Source of the DNA: Euglena gracilis
Taxonomy: Eukaryota
DNA length: 64,000 bases
Assembly (NCBI GenBank): GCA_039621445.1
Contig: CP154954.1
Location: 12,022,716 to 12,086,715, forward strand
Direction of reading: 5' to 3'
Part shown: positions 13,719 through 63,990 of the stretch, in pieces
How the letters are laid out: every line of letters starts with the position of its first letter
Position numbering within the stretch: the stretch's first letter is position 1
Program-made: the position numbers and the translations under genes
Notes under the pieces: generated by a model
Seen by the model: only the letters and a program-made list of their open reading frames with translations
Told to the model about the DNA's origin: nothing
The model's database searches: none

Positions 13719-13798
13719 GAGACCAGGCCAAGGACGAGGCGATGCTCCGAGTGCTCGCCTGTCTCGCATCCTCGGATGCCATTGTCCTGCTACAGCAG
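13719..13798 (+). CDS. Exon (DQAKDEAMLRVLACLASSDAIVLLQQ)
   Basis: Preceded by CTG-tcatg|g and followed by CAG|GTATCT; phase 0 matches the exon at 15017. Confidence 0.7.

Positions 13799-63990: not shown

What the first reader, a model, noticed from the sequence alone, without database searches (positions are those of the whole stretch)
13719..63990. One gene mixes GT-AG, nonconventional and dual-signal introns
GT-AG introns (13799-15016, 15141-15287, 33316-33365, 33434-35744, 44648-45091) alternate with more than 15 stem-closed introns lacking canonical ends. This implies two splicing codes acting on one pre-mRNA and points to a euglenid host. The phenomenon is known in euglenids, but to my knowledge the machinery is not resolved.
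Basis: partly seen in the sequence, partly recalled or inferred. Interest (0 to 1): 0.75.

Follow-up and report, generated by a model that had tools for sequence, protein, structure and literature searches.

The report
Euglena gene mixing two intron types
This is a long Euglena gracilis nuclear gene whose message is cut by a few ordinary GT-AG introns and many of the odd, stem-closed "nonconventional" introns typical of these algae, a real but already well described situation.

Summary
The finding is real, and the phenomenon is already published. A transcript-derived Euglena gracilis protein (eukprot:EG_transcript_177, 980 aa, IQ plus B-box domains) maps at about 100% identity onto the + strand from 44603 to 63990. 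It maps as 28 collinear exons.

The other 25 have no GT/GC-AG cut that fits the protein.
- 11 of these 25 fit the published code N3CDG..CH'GN5-6|R.
- 19 of 25 have end-to-end pairing of -6 kcal/mol or better, against 17% of random pairs.

So ">15 stem-closed introns" holds.

24 of 25 true nonconventional junctions also allow an in-frame GT-AG alternative.

That 13.7-44.6 kb belongs to the same gene is inferred, not shown. I obtained no read-level RNA evidence.

Mixed intron types in one gene, intermediate introns, order of removal and circular products are all in print (PMC12501133, PMC11170887, PMC6221363, PMC4770533, PMC11282704). This scan has also reported such introns elsewhere in this genome.

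The parts
44603..64000 (+). Transcript-verified part of the gene: 28 exons encoding residues 1-877 of P0006 (eukprot:EG_transcript_177; IQ + B-box). The last exon runs off the window.
   Evidence: collinear exact matches. One mismatch (residue 864). Every one of the 27 junctions is solved exactly by 2-13 protein-consistent cuts.
44648..45091 (+). Intron 1, conventional GT-AG (GTGTGC...CCCCTTCAG), 444 nt. It also has a 9-bp terminal helix (conventional/intermediate type).
   Evidence: only canonical cut of 4; helix GGTGTGCAG/CTGCGCACC; CV score 13.4.
45198..45486 (+). Intron 2, nonconventional, 289 nt (start may be 45198-45201). No strict code; 8-bp helix.
   Evidence: (-8.4).
45551..46318 (+). 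Intron 3, nonconventional, fits code (CAG..CTG, spacer 5), 768 nt.
   Evidence: (-5.9).
46507..48642 (+). Intron 4, nonconventional, fits code (CGG..CCG, spacer 5), 2136 nt. Holds a nested MITE.
   Evidence: -11.8; MITE.
48743..50036 (+). Intron 5, nonconventional, 1294 nt. CGG..CCG stem but 3' spacer 7 (near-code).
   Evidence: (-5.6).
50169..50467 (+). Intron 6, nonconventional, 299 nt. 10-bp all-GC terminal helix. Splits the B-box zinc finger.
   Evidence: (-13.1); B-box.
50594..50914 (+). Intron 7, nonconventional, 321 nt (start 50594-50599).
   Evidence: (-8.6).
50946..51375 (+). Intron 8, nonconventional, fits code (CTG..CAG, spacer 6), 430 nt, 10-bp helix.
   Evidence: (-7.8).
51504..52232 (+). 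Intron 9, nonconventional, 729 nt (start 51504-51509), 5-nt direct repeat.
   Evidence: (-10.3).
52374..53018 (+). Intron 10, nonconventional, 645 nt. Helix CAAGCCCC/GGGGCTTG. Contains the CAG-repeat 'polyQ' ORF, which is therefore not coding.
   Evidence: (-5.8); repeat.
53148..53552 (+). Intron 11, nonconventional, 405 nt. The cut is ambiguous over 13 positions because of an 11-nt direct repeat at both borders.
   Evidence: -4.9.
53574..53899 (+). Intron 12, nonconventional, fits code (CGG..CTG, spacer 5), 326 nt.
   Evidence: -5.7.
53972..54314 (+). Intron 13, nonconventional, 343 nt (start 53972-53976), 10-bp helix.
   Evidence: (-7.2).
54462..54800 (+). Intron 14, nonconventional, 339 nt, 9-bp helix.
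   Evidence: (-6.5).
54832..56209 (+). Intron 15, nonconventional, fits code (CAG..CTG, spacer 5), 1378 nt. Holds the (TATG)n array.
   Evidence: (-8.2).
56327..56669 (+). Intron 16, nonconventional, fits code (CGG..CTG, spacer 5), 343 nt.
   Evidence: -11.9.
56769..57338 (+). Intron 17, nonconventional, 570 nt.
   Evidence: -9.4.
57505..58529 (+). Intron 18, nonconventional, 1025 nt (start 57505-57510).
   Evidence: -7.5.
58582..59131 (+). Intron 19, nonconventional, 550 nt, 9-bp helix.
   Evidence: (-10.3).
59219..59422 (+). Intron 20, nonconventional, fits code (CAG..CTG, spacer 5), 204 nt. 8-bp helix; 6 of 8 flank matches.
   Evidence: (-12.2).
59465..60318 (+). Intron 21, nonconventional, fits code, 854 nt.
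   Evidence: -12.0.
60386..60731 (+). Intron 22, nonconventional, 346 nt. Weakest end pairing; no code.
   Evidence: -2.2.
60894..61538 (+). Intron 23, nonconventional, 645 nt.
   Evidence: -11.4.
61702..62428 (+). Intron 24, nonconventional, fits code, 727 nt.
   Evidence: -10.4.
62461..62645 (+). Intron 25, conventional GT-AG (GTATCT...TTCTTCCCAG), 185 nt.
   Evidence: no end pairing (0.0); CV score 10.9.
62681..63196 (+). Intron 26, nonconventional, fits code, 516 nt.
   Evidence: -9.5.
63270..63915 (+). Intron 27, nonconventional, fits code, 646 nt. 6 of 8 flank matches.
   Evidence: (-8.0).
13703..44602 (+). Inferred 5' part of the gene: ATG at 13703 behind a C-run and AG, then 26 coding blocks. 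No transcript evidence.
   Evidence: sequence; 26 + strand blocks (891 bits) against 13 - strand blocks (366 bits, 12 of them shadows of + blocks), and none in 1-13000. IQ-like motifs at 41208 and 44052. IQ Pfam hits are all below the curated cut-off.
13799..15016 (+). Claimed GT-AG intron with a long pyrimidine tract. Predicted only.
   Evidence: In-frame join; flanking exons +13.9 and +17.6 bits; CV score 10.9, within the range of false alternatives.
15141..15287 (+). Claimed GT-AG intron. Predicted only.
   Evidence: In-frame join. The downstream exon is open for 66 codons but scores -28.3 bits. CV score 9.7.
33316..33365 (+). Claimed 50-nt GT-AG intron. Predicted only.
   Evidence: In-frame join; the following 68-nt exon scores -1.0 bits; CV score 8.8.
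33434..35744 (+). Claimed GT-AG intron with C-rich tract and a terminal stem (-10.4 kcal/mol). Predicted only.
   Evidence: downstream exon +51.4 bits; CV score 10.4.
43675..44055 (+). Best unverified nonconventional candidate. Fits the code and is flanked by a perfect 8-base direct repeat (CATCCAGG) that encodes the I-Q of an IQ motif. A slide of 2 gives GC..AG.
   Evidence: Flanks +31.8 and +22.7 bits with the verified-only codon model. Window-wide, 8/8 repeats alone are not above shifted controls.
21432..21670 (+). Unverified nonconventional candidate with a perfect 8-base direct repeat (GCCATGTG) and CAGGGC/GCCCTG ends. No canonical slide.
   Evidence: Downstream coding support is weak: +3.1 bits.
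19542..20264 (+). Unverified 'dual-signal' candidate: GC..AG ends plus CGG..CCG code and a 10-bp stem.
   Evidence: (-10.9); flanks +23.7 and +20.1 bits.
47795..48102 (.). MITE-like element inside intron 4: 15-bp inverted ends CAGGGGTTTTTT.., perfect 8-base duplication GTTCCAAC. Related copies elsewhere in the window.
   Evidence: (copies near 4654-4904, 17753-17994, 29710-29902, 48415-48506, 52563-52799).

Best explanation
The window is Euglena gracilis nuclear DNA. Its + strand carries a long gene for an IQ-motif, B-box zinc-finger protein. The pre-mRNA contains two kinds of introns.

A minority are conventional GT-AG introns: 2 of the 27 verified ones. By the published E. gracilis consensus (GTGTG 5' site pairing with U1, C-rich pyrimidine tract) these are removed by the U2-type spliceosome.

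The majority are nonconventional: 25 of 27. They have no canonical borders. Their two ends pair in a short helix, often CAG/CTG or CGG/CCG. The helix starts about 3 nt inside the 5' border and ends 5-6 nt inside the 3' border. The next exon starts with a purine.

Shown here: the exon-intron map of 44.6-64 kb, the absence of canonical borders, the end pairing, and the fit of 11 introns to the code.

Taken from papers, not tested here: nonconventional introns are removed after conventional ones, are released as circles, and use an unknown machinery.

Inferred: the stretch 13.7-44.6 kb is the 5' part of the same gene.
For: P0006 (eukprot:EG_transcript_177, 980 aa, precomputed Pfam IQ and zf-B_box) is 100% identical to the query exon. 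It maps as 28 collinear exact segments. All 27 junctions are solved exactly. 2 of 27 have a GT-AG cut, and 0 of the other 25 have a GT-AG or GC-AG cut. 11 of 25 have a cut meeting N3CDG..CH'GN5-6|R.

End pairing of the 25 has a mean of -8.58 kcal/mol. Random pairs (1500) average -3.3 (p=3e-12). Non-cognate nonconventional ends (600 pairs) average -7.21 (p=0.015). 19 of 25 are at or below -6.

The unpaired total of the best helix is 8 in 7 of 25 introns and 9 in 4 of 25.

In a sequence-only gene-model test, acceptor spacers 5 and 6 ranked 1st and 2nd of 14 spacers tried. The chance of that is 1/91.

Papers: PMC12501133, PMC11170887, PMC6221363, PMC4770533, PMC11282704.
Against: - The evidence is a protein predicted from an assembled transcript, not reads. 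Cuts are known only to within 2-13 positions.
- 14 of 25 nonconventional introns do not fit the strict code.
- Cognate ends pair only slightly better than non-cognate ones (61% of non-cognate pairs also reach -6), so the helices are generic.
- The donor offset of 3 was not singled out: offset 0 scored higher.
- Flank (target-duplication-like) similarity in the 11 code-fitting introns is 3.18 of 8 against 2.59 in controls, p=0.12.
- Nothing verifies the 5' 31 kb.
- P0006 starts at an internal Met at 44603.
- Exon 3 has atypical codon usage.
Confidence: 0.88

Rival explanations
1. The span holds two or more tandem genes. Only 44.6-64 kb (plus a few upstream IQ exons) is the EG_transcript_177 gene. 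The N-terminal blocks from 13.7 kb belong to a separate gene.
For: P0006 begins at 44603. No IQ-like motif lies before 26.7 kb, and no clear one before 41.2 kb. Exon 3 scores -28.3 bits with the verified codon model. Exon 3 has no relative among 1.84 billion representatives; the 2 hits are repeat junk.
Against: The exon holding P0006's first Met stays open and coding upstream to about 44402. 26 + strand coding blocks run without a long gap from 15 kb to 44.2 kb. IQ-like motifs occur at 41208 and 44052. A start at an internal Met fits a 5'-truncated transcript contig.
Confidence: 0.3
2. One machinery, two recognition modes. The nonconventional introns are also cut by the spliceosome. The terminal helix merely presents non-canonical sites, so there are not two independent splicing systems.
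For: Not addressed by my data. PMC11170887 section 10 says spliceosome dependence must still be tested. The verified GT-AG intron 44648-45091 carries a 9-bp terminal helix too. [quoted passage not shown]
Against: By the papers' statements, nonconventional introns lack U1 complementarity and a pyrimidine tract, are removed later, and are released as full-length circles (PMC6221363 abstract; PMC11282704 passages). Mutating the CAG/CTG code abolishes splicing (PMC12501133 abstract and section 11).
Confidence: 0.3
3. The mapping is an artefact. P0006 comes from a paralogue or a mis-assembled transcript, and the gaps are not introns of this locus.
For: Only one transcript-derived protein was found. 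No reads were laid.
Against: 876 of 877 residues are identical over 28 collinear segments in order and on one strand, with exact solutions at all 27 junctions. Genomic Logan ORFs (P0003-P0005, P0007) read into the introns as expected of unspliced DNA.
Confidence: 0.02

Closest known systems
Nonconventional introns of euglenid nuclear genes (tubA, tubB, gapC, hsp90; Milanowski et al. 2014 PMC3935182, search listing only; 2016 PMC4770533, abstract)
   Same: No canonical borders. Base pairing at +4..+6 / -8..-6 (mostly CAG/CTG) brings the ends together. They sit in the same genes as conventional introns. Some carry direct repeats at the borders.
   Different: This is only another gene. It carries a far larger number of them (25 in 19 kb) than the few-intron genes studied there.
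Noncanonical splicing code 5'-N3CDG-/-CH'GN5-6|R of Euglena (Nomura et al. 2025, PMC12501133; abstract, sections 5 and 11)
   Same: 11 of 25 verified nonconventional introns fit it (44%). The paper reports 61.2% of such introns in E. agilis, and states that many genes hold both intron kinds.
   Different: 14 of 25 here do not fit at any protein-consistent cut. Several have the helix shifted by 1-2 nt, or a core other than CDG/CH'G (CAA/TTG in intron 10).
E. gracilis intron catalogue (Gao et al. 2024, PMC11170887; abstract, sections 4 and 10)
   Same: GT-AG consensus GTGTG and C-rich tract (intron 44648-45091). End-pairing energies of -2 to -10 kcal/mol measured with the same 10+U7+10 test. Short GT-AG class under 60 nt (the claimed 50-nt intron).
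   Different: That catalogue has 43% GT/GC-AG introns. Here the figure is 2 of 27. P(2 or fewer) is 5.7e-5 at 0.43, and 8.6e-3 at the E. agilis rate of 0.282.
Intermediate introns (conventional/intermediate and intermediate/nonconventional subtypes; PMC4770533 abstract)
   Same: 44648-45091 has GT-AG borders plus a stable terminal helix. At some protein-consistent cut, introns 10, 13, 19, 20 and 27 can start with GT, but none can end with AG.
   Different: That paper concluded such cases are mostly special cases of the two main types. Nothing here argues otherwise.
Transposon-derived introns / MITE origin of nonconventional introns (review PMC11282704, passages)
   Same: CAG...CTG inverted ends. 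Duplication-like direct repeats in some introns. A code-bearing MITE with an 8-base duplication lies inside intron 4.
   Different: In the 11 verified code-fitting introns, flank similarity is not significantly above control (p=0.12). The two perfect-repeat cases lie in the unverified part, and no other copies of them occur in the window.

Membership tests
Euglenid nonconventional introns | Borders are not GT/GC-AG | tested here: met
   25 of 27 transcript-defined introns have no GT-AG or GC-AG cut among all protein-consistent cuts.
Euglenid nonconventional introns | Terminal base pairing brings the two junctions together | tested here: met
   19 of 25 are at or below -6 kcal/mol, against 17.4% of 1500 random pairs. 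Mean -8.58 against -3.3. Helices of 5-10 bp.
Euglenid nonconventional introns | CDG at +4..+6 paired with CH'G followed by 5-6 nt and a purine-initial exon | tested here: inconclusive
   Met by 11 of 25 and not by 14 of 25. The paper itself finds the code in 61.2% of such introns (PMC12501133).
Euglenid nonconventional introns | Removed after conventional introns; released as full-length circles; spliceosome-independent or unknown machinery | not testable with these tools
   Literature only (PMC6221363 abstract; PMC11282704 passages).
Conventional (U2-type) introns of E. gracilis | GT-AG borders at the transcript-defined junction | tested here: met
   44648-45091 and 62461-62645. The four claims in the 5' part are predicted only.
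Conventional (U2-type) introns of E. gracilis | 5' site near GTGTG and C-rich pyrimidine tract | tested here: inconclusive
   44648: GTGTGC and a C-rich tract. 62461: GTATCT with a T/C tract. The sample is two introns.
Intermediate ('dual-signal') introns | Canonical border(s) together with a stable terminal helix | tested here: met
   44648-45091 has GT-AG borders plus a 9-bp helix. Whether the helix matters for its removal is unknown.
IQ-motif proteins | Pfam IQ (PF00612) match | tested here: met
   Precomputed PF00612 and PF00643 on P0006. The window's own block 63898-63990 scores 21.1 bits against a cut-off of 20.3. Four other blocks score 15.4-17.5, below the cut-off.

The most novel reading that the evidence does not exclude
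This IQ-repeat gene is unusually saturated with nonconventional introns (25 of 27) and may be a site of ongoing intron gain by duplication-making insertions. Four observations point that way. One candidate intron (43675-44055) sits inside an IQ motif between perfect 8-base repeats. A second candidate (21432-21670) also has perfect repeats. A verified intron (number 11) is bounded by an 11-nt direct repeat. A code-bearing MITE lies nested in intron 4. If so, the locus would be a natural series from fresh insertion to eroded intron within one gene.
Probability: 0.3. Interest if true: 0.4.

Novelty: already known. Interest (0 to 1): 0.2.

Why it matters
It matters mainly as annotation. It gives an exact, transcript-anchored map of 27 introns of one E. 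gracilis gene: 2 conventional and 25 nonconventional.

It also gives a practical warning. In this genome an in-frame GT-AG join is almost no evidence for a conventional intron, since 24 of 25 true nonconventional junctions offer one. Sequence-only gene models fail: mine got 2 of 27 introns exactly right.

This locus adds no new handle on it beyond being a dense natural test substrate.

Tried and rejected
RNA and external searches:
The small shares of runs X1-X19 were never laid and are not used.
2. Exon 3 as a protein query found no long relative. It gave only 2 repeat-junk hits among 1.84 billion representatives.
3. An exact exon-2 pattern and a P0006-based scan of metagenome contigs both found nothing.
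4. No whole genome is held for this window.
5. Rfam gave 0 matches.

Sequence-only gene models:
6. Models from dynamic programming, with a codon model plus GT-AG and code signals, were over-fitted. By my own comparison of the listing, only 2 of 27 true introns were exact (56327-56669 and 62681-63196), and one more was off by one base.
7. Decoy 'conventional' dinucleotides scored as well as GT-AG or better (CT..AC 1363.1 against 1286.6).
8. Donor offset 0 beat offset 3.

Frame and repeat tests:
9. Frame-compatibility tests of top-scoring code pairs between coding blocks were null: 17.4 observed against 16.9 expected.
10. Window-wide counts of 8/8 flank repeats were not above shifted controls: 17 against 9-21.

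Other rejected points:
11. My hand-picked candidate 60922-61545 was wrong. The true intron is 60894-61538.
12. Codon blocks also light up on the - strand as shadows of + exons.
13. The supplement of PMC11170887 is a figure document with no intron list. I saw only the file list.
14. The idea that splicing of 43675-44055 'restores' an IQ motif was dropped as independent support. The duplicated bases themselves encode I-Q on both sides.

Full report
**What the window is.** It has a G+C content of about 0.53, long G and C runs and many simple repeats. The + strand from about 13.7 kb onward carries many short open, protein-like segments.

The decisive result came late. A protein search with the exon at 57336-57521 found P0006, which its source names eukprot:EG_transcript_177. 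P0006 is 980 aa long, is 100% identical over the match, and carries precomputed Pfam families IQ and zf-B_box. The EG_transcript_N names are those of the Euglena gracilis transcriptome paper (passage seen in PMC6366073).

**The verified map.** Exact-match seeding places residues 1-877 of P0006 on the + strand from 44603 to 63990. It maps as 28 collinear segments with one mismatch, at residue 864. The remaining 103 residues lie beyond the window.

For each of the 27 junctions I listed every pair of cut positions that reproduces the protein exactly. Each junction has 2 to 13 such cuts.
- Only two junctions include a GT-AG cut: 44648-45091 (GTGTGC...CCCCTTCAG) and 62461-62645 (GTATCT...TTCTTCCCAG).
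- None of the other 25 has a GT-AG or GC-AG cut.
- The claim of more than 15 introns without canonical ends is more than met in this third of the span alone.

**Are they stem-closed, and do they follow the published code?** I used the test of Gao et al.: 10 nt from each end joined by seven U. The 25 nonconventional introns average -8.58 kcal/mol.
- 1500 random pairs average -3.3 (p=3e-12).
- 600 non-cognate combinations of the same ends average -7.21 (p=0.015).
- 19 of 25 reach -6 or better, against 17.4% of random pairs and 61% of non-cognate pairs.

The helices are therefore real but generic, as expected of a shared CAG/CTG-type core.

11 of 25 introns have a cut that meets the genetically defined code 5'-N3CDG-/-CH'GN5-6|R of Nomura et al.. 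The unpaired total outside the best helix is 8 in 7 introns and 9 in 4. Several others have strong helices slightly out of register, or with another core. Examples are the 10-bp all-GC helix of intron 6 and CAAGCCCC/GGGGCTTG in intron 10. Intron 22 has hardly any pairing (-2.2).

The verified GT-AG intron 44648-45091 itself has a 9-bp terminal helix. This is the 'conventional/intermediate' type of the literature and the only verified 'dual-signal' case. The other verified GT-AG intron has no end pairing.

**The 5' 31 kb.** Nothing transcript-derived covers 13.7-44.6 kb.

A codon model trained only on the verified exons finds 26 + strand blocks (891 bits) between 15 and 44.2 kb. It finds 13 on the - strand (366 bits), 12 of which are shadows of + blocks. 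The same shadow pattern appears in the verified part. Neither strand has any block in 1-13000.

IQ-like motifs occur at 41208 and 44052. The exon holding P0006's first Met is open upstream to about 44402. An ATG at 13703 follows a C-run and an AG, which could be a trans-splice acceptor (my reading of the sequence). I infer one gene from 13.7 kb, with odds of about 0.7, but this is not shown.

**The four unverified GT-AG claims.** All four join open frames and lack the nonconventional code. The verified part shows how little that means. 24 of 25 true nonconventional junctions also allow an in-frame, open GT-AG alternative within 45 nt, and 14 of 25 have a signal score of 10 or more. The four claims score 10.9, 9.7, 8.8 and 10.4, while the two true GT-AG introns score 13.4 and 10.9.

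With the verified-only codon model, exon 3 scores -28.3 bits and the 68-nt exon between the last two claims scores -1.0. I rate 13799-15016, which has a long pyrimidine tract, at about 0.65 and the other three at about 0.5 each.

**Candidates of the other kind in the 5' part.** Following it, I found two code-fitting candidates with perfect 8-base direct repeats.
- 43675-44055 has strongly coding flanks (+31.8 and +22.7 bits). The repeat encodes the I-Q of an IQ motif, and a slide of 2 gives GC..AG.
- 21432-21670 has no canonical slide and weak downstream coding support.

19542-20264 has GC..AG ends plus a CGG/CCG code and a 10-bp stem. These three are unverified.

Perfect repeats alone are not above shifted controls window-wide (17 against 9-21). 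In the 11 verified code-fitting introns, flank similarity is 3.18 of 8 against 2.59 (p=0.12). I therefore see no general support here for the duplication idea, only single cases. Those include verified intron 11, which is bounded by an 11-nt direct repeat. A MITE with CAGGGG...CCCCTG ends and an 8-base duplication lies inside intron 4 and has relatives in the window.

**What failed.**
- I obtained no read-level RNA evidence.
- My sequence-only gene models were poor. Against the later truth they had 2 of 27 introns exactly right (my comparison).
- Decoy dinucleotides did as well as GT-AG.
- Frame-compatibility tests were null.
- One sequence-only test did agree with the published code. Acceptor spacers 5 and 6 ranked first and second of 14 (chance 1/91).

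**Comparison with what is known.** Every element of the finding is in print.
- Conventional and nonconventional introns occur in one gene (tubA, gapC, tubB, hsp90; PMC6221363 and PMC4770533, abstracts).
- Nonconventional introns co-dominate genome-wide: 71.8% in E. agilis, with many genes holding both kinds (PMC12501133). In E. gracilis 57% of 28,337 introns are nonconventional (PMC11170887).
- Conventional introns are removed first (PMC6221363).
- Nonconventional introns are released as circles and have a suspected MITE origin (PMC11282704, passages).

The only mildly unusual feature is the share of conventional introns, 2 of 27. This is low against both published rates (p=5.7e-5 at 0.43; 8.6e-3 at 0.282).

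**Verdict.** The kind is already known, so interest is low.

Noticed in passing
window 53148-53564: Verified intron 11 is bounded by an 11-nt direct repeat, so 13 cut positions give the same protein. It has no CAG/CTG code and only a 6-bp inner helix. This resembles the 'extended direct repeats' reported for a recently gained gapC intron (PMC4770533 abstract).
   Followed up: partly
window 47795-48102 (copies near 4654-4904, 17753-17994, 29710-29902, 48415-48506, 52563-52799): A MITE-like family with 15-bp inverted ends beginning CAGGGG and a perfect 8-base duplication. One copy is nested in verified intron 4. Its ends would satisfy the nonconventional splicing code.
   Followed up: partly
window 52826-52954: A CAG-repeat ORF that reads as polyQ/polyH and scores as coding lies inside verified intron 10. 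It is absent from the transcript-derived protein. It is a trap for ab initio models.
   Followed up: yes
window 32043-32624, 37139-37330, 49275-49885, 55360-56038: Long (CA)n, (CACG)n and (TATG)n arrays of 0.2-0.7 kb. Those at 49.3-49.9 kb and 55.4-56.0 kb are inside verified introns 5 and 15.
   Followed up: no
window 5496-7077, - strand: Three overlapping open frames of about 470-510 codons over a tandem-repeat region upstream of the gene. No coding blocks are found there by the gene's codon model.
   Followed up: no
P0003-P0005, P0007 (match window 44324-44851 and 57306-57734): Proteins in the public collection called on Logan contigs are unspliced genomic ORFs that read from exons into introns. 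They differ from the window by a few residues at their ends, so another strain or allele has been sequenced.
   Followed up: partly
window 15290-15489: Putative exon 3 is open for 66 codons and protein-like. But it has codon usage unlike the verified exons (-28.3 bits) and no relative in 1.84 billion representatives.
   Followed up: partly
window 50038-50597: The B-box-like zinc finger of the protein is split by verified nonconventional intron 6. The first CxxC lies in exon 6 and the rest in exon 7.
   Followed up: partly
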